Translations under genes and position numbers: made by a program
Shown: positions 1,537 to 50,430 of the stretch, one piece after another
Layout of the letters: each line of letters opens with the position of its first letter
Numbering within the stretch: position 1 is the first letter of the stretch
Notes under the pieces: model-generated
The model's database searches: none
What the model was told of the DNA's origin: nothing
Seen by the model: only the letters and a program-made list of their open reading frames with translations
DNA from: an uncultured virus (IMG/VR IMGVR_UViG_2706794926_000001)
Taxonomy: Duplodnaviria > Heunggongvirae > Uroviricota > Caudoviricetes
Direction: 5' to 3' (one strand)
IMG/VR virus record: IMGVR_UViG_2706794926_000001
Length of the DNA: 64,000 nt

Positions 1537-1572
1537 ATAAGCTGATTTATAGCTAAGGGAGGATTTGTTATT

Positions 1573-3120
1573 ATGCTTTCAGCCAATGTTGAGTTTTTAG
1601 ATGTAATAGATGATAAAATTCATTTTAGCTCCGTCAAATTGGATTATATAGATAAGGAAATATTTAAAGATGCCTTAAGGGACGCAGAAAAACTTAGGGA
1701 AACCATAGAAGAAAACAACGAGAGAACTCCATTTTTTGAGAAGTTGAGTGAAGATTTATTTAATGCTTTATATAAGGTTGCACCAAAAGTTTATAATGAG
1801 GAAAATGTAGCTGTTTCTCTAAAGCTTGAAAATAAAATATTAAAAAGATTAATTGATAACGACAATTTTAATAAGCTTAGGAAAAATACAGCTTGTGATT
1901 TGTTTAATTCAACTTATGCCTTAAGCATGTTTTTAGATAAAGCTCGTGAAATCCTTGAAAATTTGGCTAAGCAGTCAGAAGCACATCAATTTTTGATGGA
2001 CAATATAAATACAGCTATTGCCTGCCAGGAGCAGCTTATAGAAGTCGAGCAGCAGTTAATATATGATCCTGAGGATGATGATTTAAAGGGACAAGCGTGC
2101 AATTTGAAAAAATTAATAGATAAGGCTGATAGCAATATTTTAAAGGCACAGAAAAAAGGGACAGATATTGTAGATATAAAGAAAATAAGTGACTCATTAA
2201 AGGATGTTTTAGCAGAGGTTCAAAAAAAGCTAAGTAAAGACTGGGGGTTAATGAAAAGTTTTGTCACTCTTCCTAAGGCTCCTGGAGATGAAAATGGAAA
2301 ATTACAAAAGGTTAGTTATGAAGAAAAACTTGAACTTGCAAAAGCTTTAACTAAAAGCAGTATTATTAAGCATATTTCAAAAAGACTTGGCAAGATGAGA
2401 ACTTATATAGAGGATATTAACAAAAATCCAGGAAAGTATGGGCTTACAATTTCAGGAGTTGGAGTTGGAAACAGCATAAATAGAATTTTAAGCTGTGAAA
2501 AACTCCTTTTAGCAGATAAAGACTTAGAAAATCAATTTTATAAAAAATATTTAAATAAAACCCTTCTTCAATATGAAGTGCATGGCGAAGATGAAATAAA
2601 CGGTCCCCTTATAGCATGTATAGATAATTCAGAGTCTATGAAGGGGAAAAAAGAGTATTTTGCAAAGGCTATAGCCATTTCAATGTTTCAAATAGCGACT
2701 AAAGCTAAAAGGGCTTATAGATGCGTATTGTTTGATAACACCGTAAACAAAGTGATAGATTCAAAAAAGAATGAATATAATTTGAAAAAAATAATAGAAA
2801 TTGCAGAGACCTTTTATGGTGGCGGTACAGAATTTGAGCCTCCGTTAGAAAAAGCGTTAGAAACTCTCTCCAATCATAAATTTAAAAAGGCAGATATACT
2901 TTTTATTACAGATGGAGAACCAGTTAAATTTTTATCTATGGAATTTAGAAAAAAATTAGAGGCTTTAAAGAAAAAAAGAAAATTTATAATACATGGAATC
3001 ATAATTGGGGCAGCAAATGAAAAGTATATGATGGAATTTTGTGATTACATAATAAGATTTGATGACTTGGCAGATGAAAAAGCCTTGATCAATATTTTTA
3101 ACAATATAAGTTCCAATTAA
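1573..3120 (+). CDS. VWA-domain protein (ViaA-like partner of the MoxR ATPase)
   Basis: MIDAS-like CIDNSESM, FYGGGTEF, ADILFITDG; directly downstream of the RavA-like gene. Confidence 0.88.
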   Translation: MLSANVEFLDVIDDKIHFSSVKLDYIDKEIFKDALRDAEKLRETIEENNERTPFFEKLSEDLFNALYKVAPKVYNEENVAVSLKLENKILKRLIDNDNFNKLRKNTACDLFNSTYALSMFLDKAREILENLAKQSEAHQFLMDNINTAIACQEQLIEVEQQLIYDPEDDDLKGQACNLKKLIDKADSNILKAQKKGTDIVDIKKISDSLKDVLAEVQKKLSKDWGLMKSFVTLPKAPGDENGKLQKVSYEEKLELAKALTKSSIIKHISKRLGKMRTYIEDINKNPGKYGLTISGVGVGNSINRILSCEKLLLADKDLENQFYKKYLNKTLLQYEVHGEDEINGPLIACIDNSESMKGKKEYFAKAIAISMFQIATKAKRAYRCVLFDNTVNKVIDSKKNEYNLKKIIEIAETFYGGGTEFEPPLEKALETLSNHKFKKADILFITDGEPVKFLSMEFRKKLEALKKKRKFIIHGIIIGAANEKYMMEFCDYIIRFDDLADEKALINIFNNISSN

Positions 3121-9447: not shown

Positions 9448-10359
9448 ATGTGCAAAATCTGTAAAGCATGTGGTCAAAGTAACTTTGGAGTAATAGTTAA
9501 AAAAATTGAAAAAAGAGCTGCTAAAATTGTTAATGGAAAAATAACAGAGTACTTTAAAGGTTATGCGGAAGTAGAAGAAATAAGGGAAATTAATTATTGT
9601 TTTACCTGTAGAAAGAATGTCACTGAGGAAGATCTAAGTGAAGTTCATATATGCAAAGTATGTAAAAGGGAAGCTTTAGAGGTAAATAAAAATGGAATAT
9701 GTTTAGAGTGTAGTAAAGAAGCTGAAAAGCTGATAGACATATCAAAGGAAGAGTTAATCTTAATGATTTTGAAGCAGAATAAAAAGGTTGAAACTGAGTT
9801 AAGTGATATAGGTAATTTTAATGAATCCTTGGAAATATCTGAAGAAAAAAAACTAATTGATTCAAAAGAATCCTCTACATCCCAAGAGCTTTGTAAGTTG
9901 GGGGTACATGATGAATTAGATAAAGTGACTGAGTCACATGAAATAGTTGAAGAAAATCAAAAGAAAGCTCAAAGTAAAAAAAGAAAAATTGAAGAAAAAT
10001 TAGTTAAAAATAGCAGAAAAAGTGTTACAATAGAAAAAGAAAACAAAATAGCTAAACTTAATCATGAGCAAAAAGTCGAAATCGACGTCGAAAAAAATAT
10101 GTCTTCAAGGAAGAAAAATAGAATTAAAACAAATGGTACTAATAAAAGTATTTCAAAAAATGAAGGTATTGGTATTAGCCAAGAAGTTAATGATATAGCC
10201 GTAGTAGGTACTGTTAAAGATGAAATGGATATTTTTAATATAGAGAAAAAAGCTTATTACAAAGAAGTGGTTAATAGCACATTAATCGAAATTGAAGACA
10301 TTATAAAAAGCATGGACAATAAAAATATTATTGATGATGGTATAGGTATATCTTATTAA
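9448..10359 (+). CDS. Hypothetical protein with an N-terminal Cys-rich (CxxC) putative zinc-binding region and charged low-complexity C-terminus
   Basis: CKICKAC, CFTC, CKVC, CLEC; strong AGGAGG RBS. Confidence 0.7.
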   Translation: MCKICKACGQSNFGVIVKKIEKRAAKIVNGKITEYFKGYAEVEEIREINYCFTCRKNVTEEDLSEVHICKVCKREALEVNKNGICLECSKEAEKLIDISKEELILMILKQNKKVETELSDIGNFNESLEISEEKKLIDSKESSTSQELCKLGVHDELDKVTESHEIVEENQKKAQSKKRKIEEKLVKNSRKSVTIEKENKIAKLNHEQKVEIDVEKNMSSRKKNRIKTNGTNKSISKNEGIGISQEVNDIAVVGTVKDEMDIFNIEKKAYYKEVVNSTLIEIEDIIKSMDNKNIIDDGIGISY

Positions 10360-10411: not shown

Positions 10412-10696
10412 ATGAAGGTTTTTGGAGCAAGATGCATCGTAAAGGAAGAAAAGCAAGGGGAGGAAACTGTTTCTGGAATCATAATTCCAGGTAAGGATAA
10501 AGAACCTACTTATGTTGGAAGAGTTATAGCTGTTGGTGATGGGGCTCTTCTTGAAAATGGTGAAAGAGTTTCTATGCAGGTTAAAGAAGGAGATAGAATT
10601 GCATATACTACCTTTTCAGGTTCTCCAATAAAAAATGGAGATGATGAATTTATAATATTAAATGAAAGAGATATACTTTGTGTACTAGAAGATTAG
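10412..10696 (+). CDS. groES: GroES/Cpn10 co-chaperonin (no adjacent groEL)
   Basis: ETVSGIIIPG mobile loop, GRVIAVGDG, VKEGDRI, ILNERDIL; 94 aa. Confidence 0.93.
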   Translation: MKVFGARCIVKEEKQGEETVSGIIIPGKDKEPTYVGRVIAVGDGALLENGERVSMQVKEGDRIAYTTFSGSPIKNGDDEFIILNERDILCVLED

Positions 10697-10771: not shown

Positions 10772-13700
10772 ATGAGATACGCATTGCTTCACAATCATAC
10801 TAAGTTTTCAATAAAGGATTCTCTAACTCCTCCAGTAGAGTATGTTAAGGCTATTAATGAATATAATAATTCCAATGGAGAGCATGAAATAGTGGCCTTT
10901 GCTTTAACTGATAATTCAAATATGTATGGATTAATAGATTATCATAAGGCCTGCATAGAACAAGTGGAGAATAATATTTGTAAAAAATTGAAGCCTATTT
11001 ATGGAAATGAAATCTATCATATTGATAGTTACATTGACATAGCAAAATTAAAATATGAAGAAATATATCATTTGGTTCTTCTTGCAGCAAATGAGGAAGG
11101 GTTAGAAAATTTGTATGCAATAACCACAGAGGCAGGAATACATAAAGTAAAACTTCCTTCTTATGAAATGCCATCAGCTGAGGAAGGTTATTTGGAGGAG
11201 CATGGAAGAGGGATTATAGCCTTAAGTGGTGGATTATACAGCAAAATAGGGCATTTTATTATAAATGATCAATATGAAGAAGCAAAGGATTTAGCCTTAT
11301 ATTTTCAAAATATTTTTGATGAATTTTACTTAGAAATATTGCCTTATGATGATTGTGATGAAGTAATGTGCATAAATAGAGCTCTATTAAAAATTCATAA
11401 GGAAACTGGTTTGCCTTTGGTGATTACGGGAGACACTCATTATATTTATAAAGAAGATAAAGAATATCAGGATATTTTAAAATCTATAAATAATATGGAA
11501 GTTTCTAAGGTAAATAGCCATATGAGAACTCCTGAAGAGATGATAAGCTGGTGCAAAGGAAATGATATCCCCCTCGAAGCAGTTGAAAATACAGGAAAGA
11601 TTGCTGATAAGTGCAATGTGGATATTACTCCAAAGGGTACAAAAAGCCTTATGCCATCCTTTAAGTGTCCAAAGGGATATACTCCTAATAGTTATTTAAA
11701 AAAGGAAATGTTTTTAGGGTTTAAAAAGAAATTTTTATTAGGAAAGAAGACAAGCTCCATAAAAAAATATATTAAAAGACTAAATTATGAATATACAATA
11801 ATTACATCTATGGGATACAGTAGTTATTTTTTAATATTGTGGGATTGGTGTCGATATTGTAAAAATAATGATATTCTTTTAGGACCAGGAAGAGGTTCTT
11901 GTACTGGAAGTTTAATTGCTTACTGTTTAGATATAACAAATATTGATCCTGTTAAAAATAATCTTATTTTTGAAAGGTTTTTAAATCCTGAAAGAATGGA
12001 TGAGCCAGATATAGACACAGATGTATCTAGTGTAGACAGGAAAGAGGCTATTGAATATTTTCAAAACAAATATGGAATTGAATATGTCTGCCAGATTGCA
12101 GCTTTTAATAAGTATAAAATAAAAAGTGCAATCAAAGCAGTTTTGGCAAGAAACAATGGCTATGATAATAAATTTAAGAATGATATTACAAGGAATATCC
12201 CAGATTTTTTAGGCGGGGAAAGTGTGACCTATGAGCTCTTAGAAGATATTAAAAAAAATCCCTATAATCATAACAAGTTATCACAAAGAGAAATTAATCA
12301 AGCAGCTATTATTTATGATAAGCTTCAAAAGTTATTTGCTAGAGACAGGAAGCTTGAAAGGGCTGTAAAAAAGCTATGCGGTGGAATAAGCAAAGTGAGT
12401 ATTCACGCAGGAGGAGTTGTTATTTCATCTCAAAAAATAAAAAAGCACATGCCTCTTATGGTTGGTAGTGAATCTGCTGTTTTATTGGTATCTCAATTTA
12501 ATATGGAAGGAATTCATTATCTTCATGGCTTGAAGATTGATGTTCTTGGATTAAAGTCGTTGAGCATTATAAAAGAAGCTATGAAGACTATAGGACTTGA
12601 AAGAAGATGGTTTCAAAGTGATGATACAAATGACGAAAAAGTTTACCGCTTTTTAAGGAATGGAAATACAAAGAATATATTTCAAATGTCTAAATATGTG
12701 GCAACACAAATGATAAGAGACTTTAAGGTATCGGATTTAGATGGACTCAGTACAGTAAATGCCTGCAATCGCCCAGGGCCTTTAGCTAAAGGTGTTGATG
12801 GAAAATCAATGGTTGATAAATATAAGGCTGCAGTTATGGGAAGAGATATAGAAAATAATTTAATAGATTCTGTAGGCAAAGACACGAAAGGTGTTTTGAT
12901 TTATCAGGAACAACTTATAAAACTTGGACAAGTTATGGCTGGTTACAGTCTTGGAAATGCAGACTTGAGAATAAGAAAGACCATAGCCAAAAAGGATAAG
13001 GGAAGGATAGCAGAAATTAGAAATGAATTTGTTTATGGAAAACAGTCCTTATTTAATGAAAAAGGAGAGGTATGCGGAATTTCAAAGGAACCTTCAAAGT
13101 ATTGCGTTGGCGCATTAAGGCTTGGTTTTTCGGAAGAAGAAGCTTTAAGGGTTTTTAAAAATATAGAAACTTCTGCAGCATACTGTTTTAATAAATCCCA
13201 TTCTTATGCCTATGCATTTTTAGCCTATAAGACAGCTTGGCTTAGTTTATATTATCCAGCAGAATATGCAGCAGCATGTATGAATTTTTATGCTATGGAT
13301 GGAAAAACAGAAGAGATTACAAAAACCTTAGGAGAGGTTAAACAGAGACATATTAAAATTTTTCCTCCTGATATAAATGAATCTAAGGCAGATTTTAATG
13401 TTGGTTTAAACAATGGAGATAAAAGTATAAGGTTTGGTCTTCTTGGAATAAAAGAAATTGGAAAAACTGTACTTGATTCAGTTAGAGTTTTAATAAAAAT
13501 TGATGGACCTTTTACTTCTTTTGATGATTTTTTAAAAAGGACTTTAGATGATGTAAATAATGGTACCTTAAGAAAAGAACTTAGTAAAAACTATGCTAAT
13601 GTCACACGAAAGCGTGATAAAAATGGAAAAATAGTGATAAATGTGAGAAATCCATTCTCTAAAAGAAATGTGACAGCACTTATTAAAGCTGGAGCTTTTG

Positions 13701-13873
13701 ATAGGTTTGAACTTAACAGATACAAATTATTTAACGATTTTATAAAGTTTAGAAATAAAAAGAAGGAATTAGAAAGTGAGTTATTAGAAGAAAAAAACTT
13801 TAATAGAGAGAAAAAATTACAATGGGAGTTAGAAACTTTGGGATATAATGCTTCAGGAGACGTAAGATCATGA
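10772..13873 (+). CDS. dnaE: DNA polymerase III alpha subunit (DnaE type), ending before the OB-fold and C-terminal domain
   Basis: PHP HNHTKFS, GPGRGS, FERFLNPER, PDIDTD, SIHAGGVVI, KIDVLGL, YCFNKSHSYAY, IRFGL..IK.IG. Confidence 0.95.
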   Translation: MRYALLHNHTKFSIKDSLTPPVEYVKAINEYNNSNGEHEIVAFALTDNSNMYGLIDYHKACIEQVENNICKKLKPIYGNEIYHIDSYIDIAKLKYEEIYHLVLLAANEEGLENLYAITTEAGIHKVKLPSYEMPSAEEGYLEEHGRGIIALSGGLYSKIGHFIINDQYEEAKDLALYFQNIFDEFYLEILPYDDCDEVMCINRALLKIHKETGLPLVITGDTHYIYKEDKEYQDILKSINNMEVSKVNSHMRTPEEMISWCKGNDIPLEAVENTGKIADKCNVDITPKGTKSLMPSFKCPKGYTPNSYLKKEMFLGFKKKFLLGKKTSSIKKYIKRLNYEYTIITSMGYSSYFLILWDWCRYCKNNDILLGPGRGSCTGSLIAYCLDITNIDPVKNNLIFERFLNPERMDEPDIDTDVSSVDRKEAIEYFQNKYGIEYVCQIAAFNKYKIKSAIKAVLARNNGYDNKFKNDITRNIPDFLGGESVTYELLEDIKKNPYNHNKLSQREINQAAIIYDKLQKLFARDRKLERAVKKLCGGISKVSIHAGGVVISSQKIKKHMPLMVGSESAVLLVSQFNMEGIHYLHGLKIDVLGLKSLSIIKEAMKTIGLERRWFQSDDTNDEKVYRFLRNGNTKNIFQMSKYVATQMIRDFKVSDLDGLSTVNACNRPGPLAKGVDGKSMVDKYKAAVMGRDIENNLIDSVGKDTKGVLIYQEQLIKLGQVMAGYSLGNADLRIRKTIAKKDKGRIAEIRNEFVYGKQSLFNEKGEVCGISKEPSKYCVGALRLGFSEEEALRVFKNIETSAAYCFNKSHSYAYAFLAYKTAWLSLYYPAEYAAACMNFYAMDGKTEEITKTLGEVKQRHIKIFPPDINESKADFNVGLNNGDKSIRFGLLGIKEIGKTVLDSVRVLIKIDGPFTSFDDFLKRTLDDVNNGTLRKELSKNYANVTRKRDKNGKIVINVRNPFSKRNVTALIKAGAFDRFELNRYKLFNDFIKFRNKKKELESELLEEKNFNREKKLQWELETLGYNASGDVRS

Positions 13874-13921: not shown

Positions 13922-14188
13922 ATGAAGGATTATTTTAAAAGTGCAGTGGCCTATTATTTTAAATATCTTGTTGGAGAGGGCTATAATGATCCTGTTCAAG
14001 TAATAATATATGATTTTCTTGAAACAATTAAAATTACAAAAGAGCAGCAAGATTTTATGATAAATAGTTTTGATATAAACAAAAAAGATATTTTCAATTT
14101 ATTAATTTTAATAGAAAAGATGAAATCAGATAAAAAAATAGATGAGGAGTCTTTGGATCTAATTGCTGATTATATAAAGCATTTGTAA
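13922..14188 (+). CDS. Hypothetical protein
   Basis: 88-aa ORF with AGGAGAGG RBS, in operon after dnaE. Confidence 0.65.
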   Translation: MKDYFKSAVAYYFKYLVGEGYNDPVQVIIYDFLETIKITKEQQDFMINSFDINKKDIFNLLILIEKMKSDKKIDEESLDLIADYIKHL

Positions 14189-14248
14189 AACTTCTCTAAA
14201 ACGAAAATTTGGGATATTTTTTGCTTTAAGAAAGGAATAGATGTAATA

Positions 14249-14779
14249 ATGAAGAACAACGAGGAAAATTTCAATTCTTTACATATTGTGAATAAAGGAA
14301 TTGAAGATAAATATTTTGCTAATGGTGAAATTATACAAAAGATTTTTGATGTTGTAAGGAAGAATTTTATACTCAAGGATTCATTATTTGGCAATTATGC
14401 AGCTGATACAATAATTGCTATTAACTTGAATGAATCTAAACTCAGTATTATAGAAGAAAGAATAAAGGAATTTTACGATAGAAATGGTGCAGATTTTTAT
14501 GATATATACTTAACGCTTTATGAAAAGACAAATGATGACATGATAAATAATAAGTTACTTGAAAAGGAAATTCAAATAATTAAACCGAGAAAAATTATAT
14601 ATCTTGGATTTGATAATTGCTCTGGACCAGCTTTATCTGAGAAAGAATTAGAAATATTAGTTTCTGGAATAAGTGATTTCAATAAAAAAGACACACCAGA
14701 ATATAAATATGTTAATGATAAATTTAAGCTTCTAATGGAATATGCTGCTTTAGAAAATAAAATGGGTAATATAAGTTAA
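14249..14779 (+). CDS. Hypothetical protein, possibly a degenerate uracil-DNA-glycosylase-like fold
   Basis: LEKEIQIIKPRKIIYLG resembles the family-4 UDG L..EI..I.P..I..LG motif; AAGGA RBS. Confidence 0.55.
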   Translation: MKNNEENFNSLHIVNKGIEDKYFANGEIIQKIFDVVRKNFILKDSLFGNYAADTIIAINLNESKLSIIEERIKEFYDRNGADFYDIYLTLYEKTNDDMINNKLLEKEIQIIKPRKIIYLGFDNCSGPALSEKELEILVSGISDFNKKDTPEYKYVNDKFKLLMEYAALENKMGNIS

Positions 14780-14791
14780 TGGAGGACTATT

Positions 14792-15268
14792 ATGATTCAG
14801 TCAACTTATACAAATAAAGAATGGGAAGATAAAGAAAATGAATATCTTTTAAAAATTAATTCCATAGTCATTCCATTAAAGCCAACACCAATTGAAGTTA
14901 TGGGAATTGTAAGCAGGCTGGACAACCTTCACACAGAAGCAAGCTTTGATTATTCAAATTTTAAACGAAAGCTGGAGCTTGCTAATATGGATTTAAGGAA
15001 TGCAGAAATTGAATACTTTTCTATAATTAAGCATCAGCAACAAAACTTAGGGTATAAGGTTACAGAGAATGATATAAAAGGGTTAGTTAAAAGTTATATT
15101 TCTAATAATATTATTAATGGATATTCCTCTGATTTATATACTTTAGTAAAATATTATATTTTCAGAACGACATTTATGGATCAGGTACTTAAATCCATAT
15201 TGGAAAAGAAACAAAGCATAAATATTATAAAGACAATGATGGAAACATACAATAATAAGAAAAATTAG
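14792..15268 (+). CDS. Hypothetical helical protein (weak resemblance to UvsY-like recombination mediators)
   Basis: GGAGG RBS; coiled-coil character and KVTENDIK segment; function speculative. Confidence 0.6.
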   Translation: MIQSTYTNKEWEDKENEYLLKINSIVIPLKPTPIEVMGIVSRLDNLHTEASFDYSNFKRKLELANMDLRNAEIEYFSIIKHQQQNLGYKVTENDIKGLVKSYISNNIINGYSSDLYTLVKYYIFRTTFMDQVLKSILEKKQSINIIKTMMETYNNKKN

Positions 15269-15289
15269 AAAAAAATATATAAAATGTTA

Positions 15290-15318
15290 TTGTAATACAA
15301 AAATATAAGTGTTATAAT
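15290..15318 (+). promoter_or_regulatory. Sigma-A-type promoter with extended -10
   Basis: TTGTAA (15290-15295), 17-bp spacer, TG.TATAAT (15313-15318). Confidence 0.7.
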
Positions 15319-15324
15319 AAATAT

Positions 15325-15724
15325 GCAATACACCATAAAGCCCATTAACGGGCACCGTATCCCTATAAGTATAGATGATGAAGTTTTTGAAGTTTAAAGT
15401 CGATTTCGACATATAGTTTTTCAATTTTAAACTCTATAGAAACGTTGAATCTCATCCATTTTTATTCGTTATCTATAATATACCTTGAAAGCTAAAGTAA
15501 ATGTATTAATAATATGTTCTTTGGCTTTCATCTCCCACAAAAATTGAATTTATGCTGCTAATATTTAATTATGTATTCTATCCATAAATTTAAACGCATT
15601 AAACTCCTATTAAGTAAGCACATAATGTTAATAATCTCTCTTTCTATAAATATAGCAGCTAAATATATAAATAAGTATCACAGAATAGCCAAAAAATAAA
15701 TTGTTTTGTGATGCTTATTTTATT
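15325..15724 (+). ncRNA. Candidate ~400-nt structured non-coding RNA
   Basis: Lies between the promoter and a terminator with no substantial ORF; at least five stems whose deviations are mostly G-U pairs on the + strand. Confidence 0.55.
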
Positions 15725-15726
15725 TT
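15669..15726 (+). terminator. Intrinsic terminator closing the candidate ncRNA
   Basis: 20-bp stem 15669-15688/15701-15720 (4 G-U pairs) followed by TATTTT. Confidence 0.65.
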
Positions 15727-16443
15727 ATAATATATGTTAATTTAAAAAATATAGTTAATTGTTCCATATTTCAACAAATTAAACAAATAATTTTATTTAT
15801 TTATTTAATTTAATATTATAAATCTCAAAAAAACAAAATTATCACCCTATATTATTTACAAAAAAGGAAAAAATATTACATTGTGAAAGCCGAATTATTA
15901 TATAGGGATATATTTGTTGTGAGAAAGAATTGTATTCAAGAGTAAAATAAATCTAGTTTGAATTTTGATGAAACAGGTAAAAATAGCGTTACTAAAAAGT
16001 GTGTTTTCGGGAAATGTAAATTTCCCGAAATAAAAAAATGGTATTTTTCAATGGTTTGAGCGGAATTATAAAAAATTAAATAAAGAGGTTTTTTTTTCGA
16101 AATCGACTATGCATAGATTGTGGCAAATTTTTGGATTTGAAAATTAAATAAAACTAGTATAAATCTGATTTGAAAAAATATAAATTTGAAAATATTTCTA
16201 TTTCGTTATAGAGAAAGTTCAATATATATATAGCTAAATATGTATATATATTAAATCAATTAAATTATATAGAAGAAATTACTTTCAATATAAAATTTGA
16301 CAGAAATAACTATATTATTCTATATAAATGTAATATAATAAAAATACAGGTATGCAAAAAGCATATGAATAGATAACAATTCCAGGGCGGAACAGATTCG
16401 TCTGATTACGAAGAGTTACTAAAATTAATAGAAGGTGAATATT

Positions 16444-19404
16444 GTGGCTGATAACAGCACTATATTACAAGAAGAACAAACATCAAAGGTACTTACAAAT
16501 AATTTATTGCTACGCGATAGTTTTGATAATAGCGGAGCTTTAATGGCTATTAAATTTGGAGGAGATATTCAAGAGTCAGATGGAGAGGATGCTAATTTTA
16601 CTTTAAGGTTTAAAGCAACTGAGGCTCAGGGTAATTTTGCTATTGATAGACATTTGCTAAACTTTGTATGTACAGCAGATGATAGTGGCGCAGTTCCTGC
16701 CATTACTTTTAATGATTATAAAATATGGAACGAAACAAATGATGGTCCAAATTCAGGACTAAATGCAGATTTACTTGATGGTAGACATGCTACTGAATTT
16801 AAAGATAGGTATGGTTATCATCATTTTCTTCATCAAGTTAATAAAGATCCTAAAACAACTGATGAAAAGAATTGGGTAAAAATAGCTACCTTTACTACAA
16901 GAAGAATTATGGGTAATAGATCAGATTTAGACTATACTCATGAGGGAAAACCAGCTTATGGAGGCGTATTTGAATATAGTGGAAATGGTGTCTTTGGAGT
17001 AGATCCTAAAGATGTTGTAGTTCCAGGAGGAAATGTAACTATTCCTGCAAAAAATATAAATTCTTTAAATCAAGCTCTTGCAACACTTGATATAAGAGAT
17101 CAATTTAAGGCAAATACCCCACAATTCTTAGACGAATACGACCCAGATGTATTTCATACAACTAACCTTTTAACAGAAGGTGTGTATAATGGAGCTTTAA
17201 GGGGCTGCGTTACTTTACTTAAAAATGATAATGCAACAACTTTTGATTTCCATGTTGGATTATTTGAAGATCCATTATATACAAAAGATACTACAATGAA
17301 TGATGCTTGGAATGGTATAAGAAAATATTTTTATGTAAGTTTACATGATGAAACCTTGCCATTTTTATCAGAAAAAGATGTCTATACTACTCCTAGTTAT
17401 GAGGATATGGACTCTAATTTAAACAAAGGCTATACCAAGGATGATAAAAGAAATTGGGATACAGATGATGAAAATGGAGATAAAGATGCTTCGGGTGCAG
17501 TTATTGATGGATATTCTGCAAGCTATCCTAATTTCCCGCAATATAGCTGGAGTTATAGCGGTAATACAGGAACAAAAAATTATCAAAATGATGTTACAAA
17601 TGAATTATCTGGTGGTACTAAAAGTGCAATGGCAAACTTGTATTTTACAAAACCTGATGTGGAAAAAGCTAAAAGGTTAAGAGAACTAAAGTTAGCTTAT
17701 GGAAATGATTATAAACTAGCTTTAGAAAGTGAACTTGCACGTTTGAAGGAATTAGGTCTTGCTATGGCAGATGGAGATTCGGATCCAAGTGGAGGTTCAG
17801 GACCAGGAGGTTCGAGCTCATCTGATGGTGAGGGCGGAAAGTCTTCAGATAAAGATTCTAGTAATGCAAACTTCAATTTTACTGAGTTAAGTCAGTTAGA
17901 CCCTCTTATTGAACAAGGAAGTGAAAGAAGACATGATTTTAAAGATGATCCTATTCCTCACTTGGAATATAGAGACGAAGATGTTGAAGCGATTACAGAT
18001 GTGCATACTGGTCCATTATCAAGAATAGATCTAGAAACTAAAATTCGTGGTAATTACCAAGAGTTACCAAAAACTATTCAAGAAGCTGAGCCATATAATG
18101 AAACAAAGAGAATGAGAAAGCCATTCCCAAAGAATAATGATGCAGATCAAGGGGATAAATATCAAACTTATATTGATATTATGAGATTATATCATGTAAA
18201 TACAATAGTGGAACCACTAGATGGGCTTCAAGTAGTAACTCATATATTTGAATTATATATGGCAATAGATGAAAAAACAGAAATAAGAATTCAGCCATAT
18301 ATGTCAAGTGCATGCCTTATGTATAATTTTAATGAATGTGTACCAACAGGAGAAATGCCAGCTGCAACACGTTATATAAGACCAAAATCTATATATGATA
18401 ATAGATATGCAAGTGTTCGACACAGGCATTATGACTATGAAAGAAGAATTTGGGAACTTACCTTAGAAGCAGATCAAATCTGGAAGAACTTTAAGAATTA
18501 TGTAGCAATTGATCAAGGTATGGATAATGCAAATAAAGTAATGCTTACAGATAAAGAAGGAAAAGTTTATGCTGCTGATGATAATATGGTAAGGCATTGT
18601 GAGCCAACAGATATAAATCCAGACACAGGAGAAGCGCCAAGAAGAAAAGGTTCAAGGGTTCTTGTAACAGGTGTTCCTGAAAATAGAACAATAGAAAATT
18701 GTAAAAGTTCTATAGGCACTTCTTGCGTTGAAGAAAGTGGTATTACAATAACAGAACTAAATAGCTTGAAAGGTATTCGGGGAAATATTCAAGATCAAAT
18801 AAACGATTTATTGGCTGCAGTAAATGATGAAGTTGAGAAAATATGGACAGACATTGGAGATGTATGGGAGGTATTGAAAAAAATAAAGGGATTGCTTGAA
18901 GATTTAGTTAAGGCATTAAATGCAGCATTAGGTAATTTCGTAAAGAAAACTGGAGATACTATGAATGGGTCTTTGTGGATTCAATATGATGGGAAGGCAT
19001 TAAAAAATGGAGCACCTAAAGGATTTGAGGAAAAAAATAAAGATGGAGGAGGAGAAACTTTCTGTGGAGTAAAATTCTATAGTACTGCTTCTGATGCAAA
19101 ACATGGTGGATATTTATATGGTGCAACTAATAAGACAAGTGTAGGGCTAGGGGTTCAAAGAAAAAATGGAGAAGATAGAGATGCAGATTGGGCTATAGCA
19201 CTTATAGCAGAAGAGAAGGTAGATGGCAAATACTTACCTCTTAGGTGCAATTTTAATTTTAATAGAATAACTTTTGCAATAGATGGTAGAGATGATACGA
19301 AATTAGATGCAAATGGTAAAGAGATTCCTGCTAATACTTTTTCAATAGATTTTAAAAAGCTTTATGATTGGTATAATAGCACTCATACGGAAACATTAGA
19401 TTAG
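16444..19404 (+). CDS. Large putative virion fibre or structural protein
   Basis: Tail-fibre-type motifs GPNSGLNADLLDGRHATEF and FVKKTGDTMNG; coiled-coil segments; GTG at 16444 follows GAAGGTG (track start 16435). Confidence 0.6.
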   Translation: MADNSTILQEEQTSKVLTNNLLLRDSFDNSGALMAIKFGGDIQESDGEDANFTLRFKATEAQGNFAIDRHLLNFVCTADDSGAVPAITFNDYKIWNETNDGPNSGLNADLLDGRHATEFKDRYGYHHFLHQVNKDPKTTDEKNWVKIATFTTRRIMGNRSDLDYTHEGKPAYGGVFEYSGNGVFGVDPKDVVVPGGNVTIPAKNINSLNQALATLDIRDQFKANTPQFLDEYDPDVFHTTNLLTEGVYNGALRGCVTLLKNDNATTFDFHVGLFEDPLYTKDTTMNDAWNGIRKYFYVSLHDETLPFLSEKDVYTTPSYEDMDSNLNKGYTKDDKRNWDTDDENGDKDASGAVIDGYSASYPNFPQYSWSYSGNTGTKNYQNDVTNELSGGTKSAMANLYFTKPDVEKAKRLRELKLAYGNDYKLALESELARLKELGLAMADGDSDPSGGSGPGGSSSSDGEGGKSSDKDSSNANFNFTELSQLDPLIEQGSERRHDFKDDPIPHLEYRDEDVEAITDVHTGPLSRIDLETKIRGNYQELPKTIQEAEPYNETKRMRKPFPKNNDADQGDKYQTYIDIMRLYHVNTIVEPLDGLQVVTHIFELYMAIDEKTEIRIQPYMSSACLMYNFNECVPTGEMPAATRYIRPKSIYDNRYASVRHRHYDYERRIWELTLEADQIWKNFKNYVAIDQGMDNANKVMLTDKEGKVYAADDNMVRHCEPTDINPDTGEAPRRKGSRVLVTGVPENRTIENCKSSIGTSCVEESGITITELNSLKGIRGNIQDQINDLLAAVNDEVEKIWTDIGDVWEVLKKIKGLLEDLVKALNAALGNFVKKTGDTMNGSLWIQYDGKALKNGAPKGFEEKNKDGGGETFCGVKFYSTASDAKHGGYLYGATNKTSVGLGVQRKNGEDRDADWAIALIAEEKVDGKYLPLRCNFNFNRITFAIDGRDDTKLDANGKEIPANTFSIDFKKLYDWYNSTHTETLD

Positions 19405-19468
19405 TTTCTTCAATTGTTCTTTGCAATAGAAGAGACGCTATTGCAAAGAATTTAATATTTTTAGGGAG

Positions 19469-20131
19469 ATGATAGGGATGAAAAAAAGAATTATAGGGTG
19501 TATATTGCTTGGATTAATGGTGTGTACAAGTTCTACTACAGTTTTTGCAGGAATCTGGGAACAAAGTGGACCTTCATATGATCGTTATTGGAAGTATTTA
19601 AAAGATGATGGAAGTTATGCAACAAATGAATGGCTTTATTATAATAACGCATGGTATTATTTCGGTAAATATGGTCAAATGGCTGATAATAGACAAAACT
19701 GGGAAATGCCAGGTAGTAAATACACTTATTACTTTTATGCTTCAGGAAAAATGGCAACTGGTTTTATAAGAGATACTGAATCAAATTATTTTTCTGATGT
19801 TTGGATGTTTGCTGATAAAGATGGACACTGTATAGATGGACCACTTATTATTGATGGCCAACTATATTATATAGATGTAAAAAGCGGTTTTGCTAGCGCA
19901 AATTCTACTTATAATAATGATTACTTATATCTTTATAATGATGTTACTAAAGAGAATGACAAAATTCCTTGTATAAATGATAAAGGAAAAATATTTGATA
20001 GAAATGGTAAGCCTTTTACAGCTAATTCTAAAGTCTTTACTAGGGCAAAATATATACCAGAGTATGATTCTAATGGTAATTTAGTTGGAGAAATCAAAAA
20101 TTCAACTGATTGGAGAATTATGAATTGGTAA
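19469..20131 (+). CDS. Secreted protein with cell-wall-binding repeats
   Basis: Signal peptide MKKRIIGCILLG...VFA; WKYLKDDGSYATNEW....WYYF and YYFYASGKMATG. Confidence 0.8.
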   Translation: MIGMKKRIIGCILLGLMVCTSSTTVFAGIWEQSGPSYDRYWKYLKDDGSYATNEWLYYNNAWYYFGKYGQMADNRQNWEMPGSKYTYYFYASGKMATGFIRDTESNYFSDVWMFADKDGHCIDGPLIIDGQLYYIDVKSGFASANSTYNNDYLYLYNDVTKENDKIPCINDKGKIFDRNGKPFTANSKVFTRAKYIPEYDSNGNLVGEIKNSTDWRIMNW

Positions 20132-21608: not shown

Positions 21609-22643
21609 ATGATGCTTATTAATGAAAATGATTATTTGCAAACCATTCAGAAAATAAAGGAAGAAATAAAAGCTTCACAATATAGAGCTATAAAAACTGT
21701 GAATAAAGAACTTATACTATTATATTGGAATATAGGTAATGTGATTCTTAATAATAGCAAATGGGGCAATAAGTTTATAGATAGCCTTGCAAAGGATATT
21801 AAAATGGAATTCCCTGAAATAAAAGGTTTCTCTATTAGGAATTTAAAATACATGCGTAAATTTGCAGAATTATATACAGATTTTGAATTTGTGCAGACAG
21901 TGTCTGCACAAATAACATGGTCACATAATATTGAGATTATGGATAAGGTAAAATCACAGGATGAAAGAAAATGGTATATTGAAAAGGCTATAGAAAATGG
22001 ATGGTCTTTAAATGTATTGGCTACTCAGATAAAAACAAATCTATATAAAAGGCAAGTACTTGTAGAAAAAACCACTAATTACGAAAAAAATTTACCTAAG
22101 ACACAAAGTACAATTGCAAAGGGAATTTTAAAAGATCCCTACAATTTTGATTTTATTACATTTAGGGAAGATATGTTAGAAGTTCAATTAGAAAAAGAAC
22201 TTGTAAAGCAGGTTACAAAGTTACTTTTAGAACTAGGTTCAGGCTTTGCATTTGTAGGAAATCAGTATCACATAGAAGTGGCTGGAGAAGATTTCTATAT
22301 TGATTTATTATTTTATCATTTAAAACTAAAATGCTATGTAGTCATTGAGCTGAAAACAGGAAAATTTGTACCTGAATATGCAGGTAAATTAAATTTTTAT
22401 CTTTCTGCTGTTGATGATATCTTAAAAACAGAACAGGATAATCCAACTATTGGGCTTTTATTATGCAGAGAGAAAAATAAGTTAATTGCAGAATATGCCC
22501 TTAAAGATATGACAAAACCAATTGGAATAAGTGAATACAAACTATTTGGAGAATTACCAGATGAATTTGAAGATGCATTGCCAACTATTGAAGATTTAGA
22601 AAAACGCATTAATTTCTTTGATGGGGAAATATCTGATGATTAA
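21609..22643 (+). CDS. yhcG: YhcG/DUF1016 family PD-(D/E)xK nuclease-domain protein
   Basis: VNKELILLYWNIG, GFSIRNLKYMR, KDPYNFDF, LLELGSGFAFVG, YIDLLFYH, VIELK, GKLNFY. Confidence 0.93.
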   Translation: MMLINENDYLQTIQKIKEEIKASQYRAIKTVNKELILLYWNIGNVILNNSKWGNKFIDSLAKDIKMEFPEIKGFSIRNLKYMRKFAELYTDFEFVQTVSAQITWSHNIEIMDKVKSQDERKWYIEKAIENGWSLNVLATQIKTNLYKRQVLVEKTTNYEKNLPKTQSTIAKGILKDPYNFDFITFREDMLEVQLEKELVKQVTKLLLELGSGFAFVGNQYHIEVAGEDFYIDLLFYHLKLKCYVVIELKTGKFVPEYAGKLNFYLSAVDDILKTEQDNPTIGLLLCREKNKLIAEYALKDMTKPIGISEYKLFGELPDEFEDALPTIEDLEKRINFFDGEISDD

Positions 22644-22778: not shown

Positions 22779-23684
22779 TTACTCCACTTTTCTATATTTC
22801 AAATACTCCCCTATCTTTGTCTTGGCAATATTTCTTCTTTTATTTATGCTGCCTCTACAGATGCCAAATTTATCACCTATTTCTTTGTCGGTAAGATTAT
22901 CTATATACCATAATTTAATAATTTTACGTTCTAAAGGAGTAAGGATCTTAAAGGCTGTGCTGCAAGTAATACCATTTATCCAGTTGGTATTTAAAAAAGT
23001 ATTATTATATGTATCACTATTTTCTTCCCCGTAAGCCACTGGGATAGAGGAAGTTTTAATATCGTAATATACAGTTATCTTATTTAAAGTATAGTCGTTT
23101 TCGACTTTTGATTGCACATCTTCCAATATATCTGCAAAGGTAAGATTGGTATCTTCTACAAACTTAATTGATTTAATTGGTGTAGAAATACTTACAGAGC
23201 TTCCACGTCCAATGGGATCTCGTATAGTTTTCTCCCAGTACCTATAGGCATAATAGTGGAAATTTTTATCTATATAGGTATGAAAACTAGGCCTTACATC
23301 CTTGTATTTCTGACACATATTAAAAAATATTATTTTCAAATCTTGTTTTATATCTTCAGAGCTTGACTCATGAAAAATATTCATGATTGTATTAATTGTT
23401 GAGAATACTACATTCTTCCCTGCATATTGATTATAAAAATGAGAATTTAATAATTTTCTATCTTTAGGATCTTCAACAAATAGCTTTATAAAGCTTCTTA
23501 CAGAATAGTAATTTAAATTGTATTTACCATACTTTATTAGTACTGCATAATTGGATAAGAATTTTGCAAAGGACTCCAATAATTTATCTGCAGCATCCAT
23601 TGAACCATTTTTATATTCATATACTAAGTCATGTACTCTTTGATAATCTTTGCTATAATCAACTTCATATTGTTTATTTCTCAT
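22779..23684 (-). CDS. Divergent RNA polymerase sigma-70-like factor
   Basis: Region-4 HTH LTPLERKIIKLWYIDNLTDKEIGDKFGICRGSINKRR; region-2-like EDIKQDL..IF.....KY.....SFHTYI. Confidence 0.7.
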   Translation of the reverse strand: MRNKQYEVDYSKDYQRVHDLVYEYKNGSMDAADKLLESFAKFLSNYAVLIKYGKYNLNYYSVRSFIKLFVEDPKDRKLLNSHFYNQYAGKNVVFSTINTIMNIFHESSSEDIKQDLKIIFFNMCQKYKDVRPSFHTYIDKNFHYYAYRYWEKTIRDPIGRGSSVSISTPIKSIKFVEDTNLTFADILEDVQSKVENDYTLNKITVYYDIKTSSIPVAYGEENSDTYNNTFLNTNWINGITCSTAFKILTPLERKIIKLWYIDNLTDKEIGDKFGICRGSINKRRNIAKTKIGEYLKYRKVE

Positions 23685-24807: not shown

Positions 24808-24957
24808 TATAAATCGCCTGCCTTTAATGTAATTTAGTAAAAGTACTTATGAATCTTCTTAAATATATATAGTCGAAATAGACTTGAAACTACATAAGAG
24901 AATCCATTGATTCATAAGCCCTTTACATATTTAGAATCAATATCCTTTATATATAAA

Positions 24958-33511: not shown

Positions 33512-33591
33512 TGTAGCTACTAGATAGCTACTTCTCTTTATATTATTTTAACATGTCGAATTCGACTATGCAATAAATATTAAATATGAAT

Positions 33592-42512: not shown

Positions 42513-42524
42513 TTCTTCACATCC

Positions 42525-46001: not shown

Positions 46002-46264
46002 TAAAGAACCACTCCTTTACTTTTCAAATAAGTATGAAGATACAAATTTAGCTCACTTGATATTTTTTTAGTAGAATCAATGCTCTAATTTTCAACAGCA
46101 TCTGAACTGATTGAATAATAATTTATTAATTTTCACTTGTTTTATCTGTATTTAATATACTGCAATTCTTATATGATTTGGTTTCATCATAATCAAAAAA
46201 ATAATCTATTTTTGTTTATTGGGATCATAGATGCAATTGTTTTAAGTATTTTTAAAAATTTCCT
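46002..46264 (-). pseudogene. Deletion scar with fragments of a glycine-cassette C-terminus and of a 608-aa-like gene
   Basis: Encodes KIDYFFDYDETKSYKNCSILN; contains gagcattgattctactaaaaaa and ttatttgaaaagtaaaggagtg matching the 3' end of 56565-58382. Confidence 0.7.
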
Positions 46265-47456: not shown

Positions 47457-47470
47457 ATGCTTAGTTTAAA

Positions 47471-48457: not shown

Positions 48458-48494
48458 ATTTTCTCCTTTATCTATATTTCAAATTTTATACAAT

Positions 48495-48690
48495 CTAGCA
48501 ATACACTTCTAATACTTTTTACTATTGACTTCAATTTCAATATTAGTTATTCTTAATTCACCAAATAATCTCTCAGTTTTTCTAAAATCAAATATAAAAA
48601 AATATCCTTTTTCTAGTTTATATTGTTCCAAATACTCATGTTTCACAAACTCTTGAAACTTAATAAAAATTTTTTTATATCTAAATTAAC
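48495..48690 (-). pseudogene. 3' remnant of an unrelated gene carried in with the SGNH gene
   Basis: Reads EYLEQYKLEKGYFFIFDFRK...EVYC*, resembling C-termini of clostridial AAA-like/nuclease proteins; no start. Confidence 0.4.
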
Positions 48691-50417: not shown

Positions 50418-50430
50418 AAAAATTTCTCCA

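What the first reader, a model, noticed from the sequence alone, without database searches (positions are those of the whole stretch)
15290..15726. Candidate novel ~400-nt structured ncRNA with C/U-rich anti-SD-like linkers
A near-consensus promoter and a 20-bp terminator stem enclose an interval without a substantial ORF. Stems: 15340-15353, 15370-15382/15465-15477, 15391-15403/15421-15433, 15486-15497/15519-15530 and 15554-15567/15647-15659. Most deviations are G-U compatible only on the + strand, which points to selection on RNA structure. Unpaired stretches carry AUCCCU, UCUCCCA, ACUCCU and UCUCUCUUUC, like the C-rich seeds of Firmicutes sRNAs that pair with ribosome-binding sites. It sits at the end of the replication operon next to an AT-rich gap.
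Basis: partly seen in the sequence, partly recalled or inferred. Interest (0 to 1): 0.75.

Follow-up and report, generated by a model that had tools for sequence, protein, structure and literature searches.

The report
New structured small RNA on clostridial phage-plasmid
A 136-kb phage-like plasmid of a Clostridium carries a conserved, expressed, protein-free gene for a folded RNA of about 335-400 bases that probably switches other genes off by pairing with their ribosome-binding sites.

Summary
The + strand folds far better than shuffles (z -5.5), the - strand does not (z -0.9).

Four related loci were found through the upstream gene. All four carry the same unit: a conserved promoter, conserved helices with compensatory changes, a terminator and no conserved ORF.

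RNA-seq contigs from two studies cover 15236/15377-15659, at 30-53x against 0-7x for the upstream gene. Contigs show neither strand nor true ends.

No Rfam family matches, and blastn found nothing in the phage or plasmid collections.

I read it as a new small-RNA family of a small group of clostridial phage-plasmids. Its mechanism is inferred, not shown. The most conserved unpaired motif, UCAUCUCCC, is complementary to the ribosome-binding region GGGAGAUGA of a secreted cell-wall-binding protein gene 3.9 kb downstream. The same holds for that gene's three paralogues in the related element. This candidate is not statistically decisive.

One "stem" (GTCGATTTCGAC) is a copy of an element-wide DNA palindrome: 12 copies on the 136-kb element, none in the 6.5-Mb chromosome.

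The parts
15269..15289 (+). A-rich tract directly after the upstream stop codon (possible UP element)
   Evidence: AAAAAAATATAT is invariant in 5 of 5 loci. The UP-element function is inferred.
15290..15318 (+). Sigma-70-type promoter: -35 TTGTAA, 17-nt spacer, TG-extended -10 TATAAT. Predicted start near 15324-15326.
   Evidence: 10 of 12 matches, TG. Hexamers, TG and spacing are kept in 5 of 5 loci as TTGTAA/TTGAAA and TATAAT/TATACT.
15324..15659 (+). Core of the RNA (about 335 nt) covered by RNA-seq contigs
   Evidence: X3 contig 15236-15659 has depth 53; X7 contig 15377-15659 has depth 30. Both stop at 15659. The upstream gene has depth 3-7 (X3) or none (X7). Strand is not shown by contigs.
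15340..15353 (+). 5'-proximal hairpin GCCCAUUAACGGGC
   Evidence: Kept in L010, not in L009, L011 or L012.
15357..15372 (+). Unpaired C-rich motif S1, GUAUCCCUAUAAGUAU
   Evidence: P(unpaired) 0.86. YCCSUAUAA is kept in 4 of 5 loci, CUAUAA in 5 of 5. It is complementary to the upstream half of the candidate target site.
15370..15477 (+). Domain I: outer helix 15370-82/15465-77 enclosing helices 15383-89/15437-43 and 15391-15403/15421-33
   Evidence: Covariation in helices 1 and 3 of the model alignment.
15399..15410 (.). GTCGATTTCGAC, one copy of an element-wide DNA palindrome
   Evidence: With at most 1 mismatch: 12 copies on the 136-kb element, 0 in the 6.53-Mb chromosome, 7 in the related 66-kb contig. 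Consensus tA-GTCGATTTCGAC-Ta.
15486..15530 (+). Domain II hairpin, GAAAGCUAAAG...CUUUGGCUUUC
   Evidence: All 11 pairs form in 5 of 5 loci. One pair switches C-G to U-A and one U-G to U-A.
15528..15536 (+). Unpaired seed candidate S2, UCAUCUCCC
   Evidence: Lies in the most conserved block. Exact in 3 of 5 loci; UCAUUUCCC in L010, UCAUUCUCCC in L011. P(unpaired) 0.95.
15548..15664 (+). Domain III: long-range helix 15548-67/15647-64 around a variable interior holding ACUCCU (15603-15608) and UCUCUCUUUCU
   Evidence: The helix is found in 4 of 5 loci with 3 compensatory positions. Not found in L012.
15669..15730 (+). 20-bp AU-rich hairpin plus U-rich tail (putative terminator)
   Evidence: Kept with compensatory A-U to G-C in L009. 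L011 and L012 have other hairpin-plus-U-tract terminators at the same place. RNA-seq contigs stop before it.
16096..16107 (-). Second copy of the palindrome (GTCGATTTCGAA) in the same intergenic region
19464..19472 (+). Candidate target site GGGAGAUGA (Shine-Dalgarno plus 4 nt) of gene 19478-20131
   Evidence: It is the only occurrence on the element apart from the RNA gene's own complement. The duplex with S2 is -17 to -18.6 kcal/mol, best of 126 start regions.
19478..20131 (+). Candidate target gene: secreted protein with choline-binding-type cell-wall repeats
   Evidence: Signal-peptide-like N-terminus. Pfam Choline_bind_3. PHROG endolysin family, C-terminal part only.

Best explanation
15290-15730 is an independent gene for a structured non-coding RNA, transcribed on the + strand of a phage-like plasmid. 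A conserved sigma-70-type promoter starts the RNA near 15324. The RNA folds into three domains: helices around 15370-15477, a hairpin at 15486-15530, and a long-range helix 15548-15664. A hairpin-plus-U-tract terminator follows, and it may be trimmed off, leaving about 335 nt ending near 15659.

I infer that it acts in trans as a base-pairing regulator, like the C-rich-motif small RNAs of Firmicutes. Unpaired pyrimidine motifs between the domains, above all UCAUCUCCC just 3' of the domain II hairpin, would pair with purine-rich ribosome-binding sites and block translation initiation.

The best candidate target is the secreted cell-wall-binding-repeat protein gene at 19478-20131. Its SD region GGGAGAUGA and the U-rich stretch before it are complementary to the RNA.

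Shown: the structure signal, conservation, covariation, absence of a conserved ORF, and presence in RNA-seq assemblies. Inferred: the strand, the ends, the pairing mechanism and the target.
For: Existence of the gene:
- Fold z -5.5.
- All 4 loci that carry a close homologue of the upstream 158-aa gene also carry the unit directly downstream, at 85%, 68%, 61% and 59% DNA identity.
- The promoter is conserved in 5 of 5 loci.
- In the model alignment 90.5% of cells pair, against 33-52% with slid partners. 7 pairs change on both sides, against 3.4 +/- 1.1 in shuffles (0 of 500 reach it) and 1-3 when slid.
- Three further compensatory positions lie in the domain III helix.
- No ORF is conserved in length or sequence on either strand.
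- RNA-seq contigs of two studies cover the locus at 53x and 30x, while the upstream gene has 3-7x or nothing.

Strand:
- The promoter and U-tract terminators are on + in all loci.
- In conserved helices there are 12 G-U cells and 2 A-C cells.
- The + strand z score is better in 4 of 5 loci.

Mechanism:
- The seeds are unpaired (P 0.69-0.98) and positionally conserved.
- The window RNA contains no SD-like motif (0 found, 0.58 expected).
- S2 against the start region of 19478 gives the best hybrid of 126 genes (-18.6; next best -15.4).
- GGGAGATGA occurs nowhere else on the element.
- In the related element, all three tandem paralogues of that gene carry GGGAGAUGA. With accessibility terms they take ranks 1, 2, 4, 6 and 7 of 320 seed-gene pairs.
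- The last 30 nt before the start codon are 73-80% identical between the two elements, although the proteins are only 43-46% identical. Four other gene pairs below 52% protein identity show 45-64%.
- Comparator literature: unpaired UCCC motifs in the most conserved parts of Rsa RNAs and RNAIII bind SD sequences (PMC2790875, passages read).
Against: - The count of C-rich motifs is not above shuffle expectation (p 0.02-0.32 across the 5 loci).
- With accessibility terms the candidate ranks only 6th of 500 seed-gene pairs on this element.
- 22 of 4493 host start regions reach the same S2 hybrid energy. A hit of this strength among 126 genes is therefore expected by chance about half the time.
- A plain complementarity alignment of the whole RNA does not single out this gene.
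- The target could not be checked in the L010, L011 and L012 lineages, whose contigs are too short.
- L009 folds slightly better on the - strand. When the window's own MFE pairs are mapped onto L009, more changed pairs stay valid on - (22) than on + (11). That mapping rests on a crude alignment across indels.
- Contigs cannot show strand or ends. Run X6 has no contig over the RNA.
- Only 5 sequences from about 3 lineages are in hand, and the structure was derived from the same alignment.
Confidence: 0.4

Rival explanations
1. It is a real structured RNA, but it works by binding a protein or another non-mRNA ligand (chaperone, RNA polymerase, nuclease or defence protein), as a scaffold or decoy. 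The C-rich stretches would then be incidental linkers.
For: It is long and multi-domain (335-400 nt, 3 domains) compared with typical seed-type small RNAs. The domain II hairpin is conserved in sequence, not only in pairing (9 of 11 pairs never vary). C-motifs are not enriched. There is no decisive target.
Against: No match to 6S or any other protein-binding RNA family in Rfam. No RNA-binding protein was recognised next to it. The upstream protein's model resembles T4 UvsY, a DNA recombination mediator.
Confidence: 0.2
2. It is a replication or maintenance RNA of the phage-plasmid: a primer, R-loop or copy-number-control transcript acting in cis at an origin in the adjacent AT-rich gap.
For: It sits at the end of the module that holds a DnaE-like polymerase (10772-13873) and a UvsY-like protein. 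An AT-rich stretch (22.5% GC) follows. It stays linked to this module even where the downstream genes differ (L012).
Against: Cumulative GC skew turns at about 21.5 kb and about 124.5 kb, not here. The gap 15740-16060 is not conserved in L009. No promoter-like site for a countertranscript lies inside the gene. In L012 a coding gene follows the terminator directly, with no gap.
Confidence: 0.1
3. The conserved features act mainly as DNA: a regulatory hub with palindromic operator sites and promoters. The transcript would be a by-product.
For: GTCGATTTCGAC inside the RNA gene belongs to a palindrome family. With at most 1 mismatch it has 12 copies on the element, 0 in the chromosome, and a second copy 700 bp downstream. 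The L011 variant GTCGATTTAGAC breaks the RNA pair but is a variant also used at other sites of the family.
Against: Covariation and G-U pairs in the other helices are RNA-type signals. Promoter and terminator bracket the unit in all loci. The transcript accumulates well above the upstream mRNA.
Confidence: 0.1
4. The functional transcript is on the - strand, starting near 15659 and ending at the GCCCGUUAAUGGGC-UUUAUGG hairpin near 15340.
For: Two contigs end at 15659. A terminator-like site lies on the - strand at 15353-15340. The L009 - strand folds with z -6.3.
Against: No - strand promoter was called at 15660-15700. That region is not conserved in L011 or L012. The - strand hairpin is kept only in L010. 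The window's - strand z score is -0.9. The X3 contig runs on to 15236, past that hairpin.
Confidence: 0.07
5. It is an mRNA for a small peptide, for example the 42-aa ORF at 15571-15699 or the MKxK frame on the - strand.
For: The 42-aa ORF has a hydrophobic core and basic ends. The - strand frame has GGGAG before its AUG.
Against: The 42-aa ORF has no SD. It is frameshifted to 29 aa in the closest relative and absent in the others. The - strand frame has zero SD-AUG spacing and lengths of 20, 19, 23, 8 and 6 aa.
Confidence: 0.03

Closest known systems
C-rich (UCCC-motif) regulatory RNAs of Firmicutes: Rsa RNAs including RsaE/RoxS, RNAIII, LhrC
   Same: It has its own promoter, a 5' hairpin and a 3' terminator hairpin. 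Unpaired UCCC-containing motifs lie in the most conserved parts, and one is complementary to an SD region. The class is described in PMC2790875 (passages read). For LhrC (PMC4132741) I saw only the search listing.
   Different: There is no sequence or structure homology (no Rfam match). It is encoded on a phage-plasmid of a Clostridium. The main motif lies in a linker rather than a hairpin loop. At 335-400 nt with long-range helices it is larger than most, with RNAIII the nearest in size (recalled). No target has been shown.
Immunity and anti-immunity small RNAs of phage-plasmids and satellites (P1/P7 c4, N15 CA RNA, P4 CI RNA); recalled, not read here
   Same: It is a small RNA encoded by a plasmid-like prophage that would mask a ribosome-binding site on the same element, on the same strand and downstream.
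   Different: Those RNAs are about 70-80 nt. They are processed from the leader of the operon they control, and their targets lie directly downstream. This RNA has its own promoter, is 4-5 times longer, and its nearest complementarity is 3.9 kb away. No Rfam family matched.
ColE1-type RNA II / RNA I replication control
   Same: It is a structured RNA of several hundred nucleotides, transcribed towards an AT-rich region next to replication genes.
   Different: No countertranscript promoter was found. There is no skew or conservation signal for an origin. A terminator separates the RNA from the AT-rich gap.
Large structured RNAs of phages and prophages in Rfam (GOLLD, ROOL, HEARO and others)
   Same: It is an ORF-free, highly structured RNA on a phage-like element.
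   Different: No match at gathering score, nor up to E = 10 in the locus. It is smaller and is confined to a narrow phage group.

Membership tests
C-rich/UCCC-motif base-pairing sRNAs of Firmicutes (functional class) | Independent non-coding transcription unit (own promoter, terminator, no conserved ORF) | tested here: met
   Promoter conserved in 5 of 5 loci. Terminator hairpins in all loci. No conserved ORF. RNA-seq contigs cover it.
C-rich/UCCC-motif base-pairing sRNAs of Firmicutes (functional class) | Unpaired C-rich motif located in the most conserved part of the RNA | tested here: met
   UCAUCUCCC has P(unpaired) 0.95 and adjoins the best-conserved block. The number of such motifs is not above chance.
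C-rich/UCCC-motif base-pairing sRNAs of Firmicutes (functional class) | Pairs with SD regions of target mRNAs and blocks initiation | tested here: inconclusive
   In silico only. The candidate at 19464-19472 is conserved in the related element but is within chance expectation. A biochemical test is not possible with these tools.
RsaE/RoxS and other named sRNA families (homology) | Match to the family's covariance model | tested here: not met
   0 matches at gathering score in 64 kb. In 15000-16600 there were only two chance-level microRNA hits up to E = 10.
P1 c4 / P4 CI / N15 CA type immunity RNAs | Short RNA processed from the leader of the operon it controls, with complementary target boxes directly downstream | tested here: not met
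   It has its own promoter and terminator. No extended complementarity lies nearby; the nearest 9-nt site is 3.9 kb downstream. No Rfam match.
ColE1-type primer and antisense RNA pair | Overlapping countertranscript and location at the origin | tested here: inconclusive
   No - strand promoter-like site lies within 15320-15700. GC-skew extremes are elsewhere. The origin has not been mapped.
Intrinsic terminator | G+C-rich stem, short loop, U tract | tested here: inconclusive
   A 20-bp AU-rich stem with a 12-nt loop and a U-rich tail appears in the fold. It was not called by the pattern scan. RNA-seq contigs end 10 nt before it.

The most novel reading that the evidence does not exclude
The RNA is the centre of a two-layer control hub of a clostridial phage-plasmid. 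It would be an RNAIII-like multi-seed RNA made in the carrier state. It would silence a family of secreted cell-wall-binding proteins: one gene here and three tandem copies in the related element. Its own gene carries one of the element-specific palindromic operator sites, which would tie the RNA layer to a phage-wide DNA-binding regulator.
Probability: 0.12. Interest if true: 0.7.

Novelty: new member of a known kind. Interest (0 to 1): 0.5.

Why it matters
Regulatory RNAs of phage-plasmids are known almost only from the E. coli elements P1, P7, N15 and P4 (recalled). My searches of the held literature found none described for clostridial phage-plasmids. No Rfam family covers this RNA.

This locus is a defined, conserved and expressed RNA with a concrete, testable seed-target pair. 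It sits on an element that can be cured from its host, according to a paper on a Clostridium with a 136-kbp megaplasmid (PMC9402939, passage read). I did not establish that this paper concerns the window's own genome.

If the target is real, it would show how a plasmid prophage keeps a cell-wall-active gene family silent. The element-specific palindrome gives a second, independent handle on the same regulatory network.

Tried and rejected
Searches for relatives or known families:
- Rfam, whole window at gathering score and the locus up to E = 10: nothing usable.
- blastn of 15270-15760 against the phage and plasmid collections: no match.
- blastn against 59 scored related genomes: only short AT-rich chance matches.
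- Two degenerate patterns of the conserved hairpins in IMG/VR: 0 matches. The upstream protein also has no relative there.
- tblastn of the upstream protein against phages: none. Against plasmids there was one distant hit (33% identity) in a C. baratii plasmid, which has no gap or RNA downstream.
- Covariance model R1: only the locus itself in the own genome. 1 of 125 other genomes of the genus, which is the same element as L009. 0 of 147 other genomes of the family. An order-level search returned a machine error.
- Earlier findings of this scan: nothing.

Other ideas tested:
- Extended antisense complementarity anywhere in the genome: none beyond chance. A 16-nt sense match at 45875-45890 turned out to be the palindrome.
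- Host CRISPR repeat (chromosome, about 5.277-5.281 Mb): by eye I saw no resemblance to the RNA; no alignment was run.
- tRNA or tmRNA in the window: none.
- GC skew as an origin marker: the extremes lie elsewhere.
- C-rich motif enrichment: not significant.

Target prediction and strand tests that did not work:
- The first target-prediction script filtered out most genes and I do not rely on it.
- An accessibility run timed out and then hit an index error before the working version.
- Whole-RNA complementarity alignment did not single out the candidate.
- Threading each strand's structure onto the other gave inconsistent energies and is not used.

RNA-seq limits:
- Run X1 spans the whole stretch in one deep contig and is uninformative.
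- Run X6 has no contig over the RNA. A hole proves nothing.
Full report
Setting

The window is the reverse strand of contig C2:65688-129687 of a two-contig genome: C1 of 6,530,257 bp and C2 of 136,188 bp, both 29% GC.

C2 is a phage-like plasmid:
- From 24 kb to the window's end at 64 kb, the - strand carries virion, tail-fibre-like and endolysin genes (PHROGs).
- From about 9 to 15 kb, the + strand carries a replication and recombination module. It holds a 303-aa protein, a GroES-like protein, a DnaE-type polymerase (10772-13873) and three small proteins.
- Outside the window there is a ParA ATPase with a small partner ORF.
- The 158-aa protein just upstream of the finding (14792-15268) has no Pfam family. 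Its AlphaFold model (pLDDT 87) resembles T4 UvsY: the 11 top Foldseek rows are UvsY chains with target TM up to 0.78, but E is only 0.09-0.22.

The finding lies in a 1.17-kb intergenic region (15269-16434) of 22.5% GC.

Observation

The scan finds TTGTAA-17-TATAAT with TG at 15290-15318. The + strand energy is -83.9 kcal/mol against -57.4 +/- 4.8 for shuffles (z -5.5). The - strand has z -0.9. The longest ORF is 42 aa. Rfam gives nothing.

Relatives

The DNA has no blastn match in the phage or plasmid collections. It has only chance matches in 59 scored related genomes.

The upstream 158-aa protein has 26 database relatives. Loci encoding it were recovered from one genome assembly (L009, which is G115:C314) and three metagenome contigs (L010-L012). 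In all four the DNA directly downstream aligns with the window, at 85%, 68%, 61% and 59% identity. Because these loci were found through the neighbouring gene, the linkage is partly by construction. Even so, in L012 the downstream genes differ and the RNA unit is still there.

Three things are conserved in all five loci:
- an A-rich tract;
- the -35, TG and -10 promoter elements at fixed spacing;
- the blocks AAGUCGAUUUCGAC, GAAAGYUAAAGUA...CUUURRCUUUCAU(C/U)UCCC and AUUUAUGCU.

Each locus ends in a hairpin with a U tract, but the hairpins are not all homologous.

A covariance model of domains I-II finds:
- only this locus in the own genome;
- 1 of 125 other genomes of the genus, which is the element behind L009;
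- 0 of 147 other genomes of the family.

IMG/VR holds neither the RNA patterns nor the neighbouring protein. The family is therefore narrow.

Structure

On the model-based alignment of the five sequences:
- 30 pairs in 4 helices are 90.5% paired, against 33-52% when the partner is slid by 1-3 columns.
- 7 pairs change on both sides, against 3.4 +/- 1.1 in column shuffles (0 of 500 reach 7) and 1-3 in the slid controls.

The structure came from the same alignment, which inflates these figures somewhat.

The domain III helix is found in 4 of 5 loci and has three compensatory positions: GCUGCU/AGCAGC becomes GCUAUU/AAUAGC, and AUAUUUA/UAAAUAU becomes RUACUUA/UAAGUAU. L012 lacks it. All five loci fold better than shuffles on the + strand, with z from -3.7 to -6.8.

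Strand

Evidence for the + strand:
- the conserved promoter and the U-tract terminators, unambiguous in L012;
- 12 G-U cells against 2 A-C cells in the conserved helices;
- a better + strand z score in 4 of 5 loci.

Evidence against, or neutral:
- L009 has z -6.3 on the - strand and -5.4 on +.
- When the window's own MFE pairs are mapped onto L009 by a simple alignment, 11 of 39 changed pairs stay valid on + and 22 on -. For L010 the figures are 6 and 6 of 13. That mapping crosses indels and includes helices that are not conserved.

Coding

No frame is conserved. The 42-aa ORF has no SD and is frameshifted to 29 aa in the closest relative. A frame starting at the conserved AUG of AUUUAUGCU runs 11, 13, 38, 25 and 9 codons in the five loci (read by hand from the sequences). 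A - strand frame beginning GGGAG-AUG has no SD spacing and runs 20, 19, 23, 8 and 6 codons.

Expression

Fifteen public runs hold part of 14000-17000, and 11 are on record as RNA. All are kept only as assembled contigs. I laid four of them:

| Run (study) | Contig over the RNA | Depth | Upstream gene | Downstream gene |
|---|---|---|---|---|
| X3 (P2) | 15236-15659 | 53 | four contigs at 3-7 | 172, from 16393 |
| X7 (P3) | 15377-15659 | 30 | none | 225, from 16425 |
| X6 (same sample as X3) | none | - | covered | - |
| X1 | one deep contig over everything | - | - | - |

X6 leaves a hole, which proves nothing. X1 is uninformative.

Two studies stopping at the same base (15659), with no loose ends, is a weak hint of a real RNA end. 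That position lies within the 3' arm of the domain III helix, 10 nt before the 20-bp hairpin. The abundant form may therefore lack the terminator hairpin. Contigs show neither strand nor true ends.

Mechanism

The RNA has unpaired pyrimidine motifs between its domains:
- S1, GUAUCCCUAUAAGUAU;
- CUCAUCCA inside domain I;
- S2, UCAUCUCCC after domain II;
- ACUCCU and UCUCUCUUUCU inside domain III.

They are predicted unpaired, and S2 lies in the best-conserved block. Their number is not above composition.

No long antisense partner exists anywhere in the genome.

I called genes on C2 (126) and on the syntenic 66-kb contig of G115 (81) with a simple script. I then scored each element's own seeds against all start regions.

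Hybrid energy only:
- S2 against gene 19478-20131 is the best of 126 (-18.6 kcal/mol; next best -15.4).
- Its three tandem paralogues in G115 score -21.5, -18.6 and -16.8. This is the best conserved pairing among orthologue pairs.

The core is 9 perfect pairs, UCAUCUCCC with GGGAGAUGA. The latter is the SD plus 4 nt, 9 nt before the likely start codon at 19478. Flanking A-U pairs differ between the two elements but are present in both. GGGAGATGA occurs nowhere else on C2 except as the RNA gene's own complement. On the G115 contig it occurs at the three paralogues, at one non-start site and at the RNA gene. S1 is complementary to the adjoining upstream part of the same site.

With accessibility terms:
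- The G115 paralogues take ranks 1, 2, 4, 6 and 7 of 320 seed-gene pairs.
- The C2 gene takes rank 6 of 500.

The 30 nt before the start codon are 73-80% identical between the elements, while the proteins are 43-46% identical. Four other gene pairs below 52% protein identity show 45-64%.

Against this candidate:
- 22 of 4493 host start regions reach the same S2 energy, so one such hit among 126 genes is unremarkable.
- The chromosome has 31 copies of the 9-mer, about ten of them at plausible start sites.
- A whole-RNA complementarity alignment does not single the gene out.

I hold the pairing mechanism at about 0.4 and this particular target at about 0.2-0.25. A second, weaker conserved candidate is CUCAUCCAUUUUU against the start region of 21612-22643.

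The target protein has a signal-peptide-like N-terminus and choline-binding-type repeats. It matches only the wall-binding part of a PHROG endolysin family.

The palindrome

GTCGATTTCGAC (15399-15410) was read as a small stem. With at most one mismatch, the same 12-mer occurs:
- 12 times on C2, and not once in the 6.53-Mb chromosome;
- 7 times on the 66-kb G115 contig, with six sites at orthologous places, two of them inside coding regions.

The consensus is tA-GTCGATTTCGAC-Ta. Several copies lie 40-180 nt upstream of genes, directly before a TATAAA-like hexamer. A second copy lies at 16096-16107 in the same intergenic region. The L011 variant of the RNA gene (GTCGATTTAGAC) breaks the RNA pair but is a variant used at other sites.

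I therefore read this segment as a DNA site for an unknown factor of the element (operator, centromere-like or promoter element). Its invariance should not be counted as RNA-structure evidence. For comparison, the phage-plasmid N15 has four separate inverted-repeat centromere sites (PMC7205306, passages read). That they lie dispersed near regulatory regions is recalled, not read.

Comparison and novelty

The RNA works most like the C-rich-motif RNAs of Firmicutes. It has a 5' hairpin, a terminator and an unpaired UCCC motif in the most conserved part that binds SD sequences (PMC2790875). It is homologous to none of them.

It differs from the phage-plasmid immunity RNAs of P1, P4 and N15 (recalled) in size, in having its own promoter, and in having no adjacent target boxes.

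My literature searches for small or non-coding RNAs on clostridial megaplasmids or phage-plasmids found no description of it. I saw the listings, and passages of one paper. Supplementary files were not consulted.

I class it as a new member (a new family) of a known kind.

Noticed in passing
window 15399-15410, 16096-16107, 10075-10086, 23094-23105, 24872-24883, 33555-33566, 45876-45887, 56440-56451; further copies on C2 outside the window; L017-L020: A palindrome, tA-GTCGATTTCGAC-Ta. With at most 1 mismatch it has 12 copies on the 136-kb element, 0 in the 6.53-Mb chromosome and 7 on the related 66-kb contig. Six sites are at orthologous positions, some inside coding regions. It is probably a binding site for a factor of the element.
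   Followed up: partly
window 14792-15268: The 158-aa protein upstream of the RNA has no Pfam family. Its AlphaFold model (pLDDT 87) resembles the T4 recombination mediator UvsY (top 11 Foldseek rows, target TM up to 0.78, E 0.09-0.22).
   Followed up: partly
window 15389-15440 versus L010: Three coordinated substitutions separate L010 from the window: U to C in two direct-repeat segments and A to G in the segment that can pair with either. Both of two mutually exclusive helices are thereby kept, which hints at alternative conformations of domain I. This is seen in one lineage only.
   Followed up: no
window 19421-19480; L019 (G115:C314 45200-47900): The candidate target gene is preceded by a hairpin, UUGCAAUAG...CUAUUGCAA, and a conserved start region. 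The related element has three tandem paralogues, each with the same hairpin and start region.
   Followed up: partly
window 16393-19404: The 989-aa protein gene has no Pfam family. In RNA-seq contigs it is the most strongly covered gene of the stretch (depth 172-225), and the contigs begin at 16393-16449, just around its GTG start at 16435.
   Followed up: no
window 15967-16124: A low-depth RNA-seq contig (3x, run X3) lies in the AT-rich gap. It covers a hairpin, TTTCGGGAAATGTAAATTTCCCGAAA, at about 16006-16031.
   Followed up: no
window 36156-54327: Two long runs of paralogous genes lie on the - strand: four of phrog_12269, and six with best match to phrog_7388. They show weak tail-fibre similarities, suggesting a diversified receptor-binding arsenal.
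   Followed up: no
L021:12211-12705 (C2, outside the window): A 164-aa protein carries a Tad2-like (anti-Thoeris) domain, E 7e-7.
   Followed up: no
L021:101-1224 (C2, outside the window): A ParA-type ATPase is followed by an overlapping 125-aa ORF. This looks like a plasmid partition pair and supports a plasmid lifestyle for this phage-like element.
   Followed up: no
window 202-3120 and 10412-10696: The element carries a MoxR-type AAA ATPase with a VWA-domain partner, and a GroES-like Cpn10 gene next to the polymerase gene.
   Followed up: no
G000:C1 about 5,277,000-5,280,600: The host chromosome has a CRISPR array with at least 22 copies of a repeat whose exact 20-nt core is CTCATAGTTAATATAAAACT. 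In the 6 copies printed, the repeat spans about 30 nt and matches type I-B Clostridium repeats (the type is recalled).
   Followed up: no
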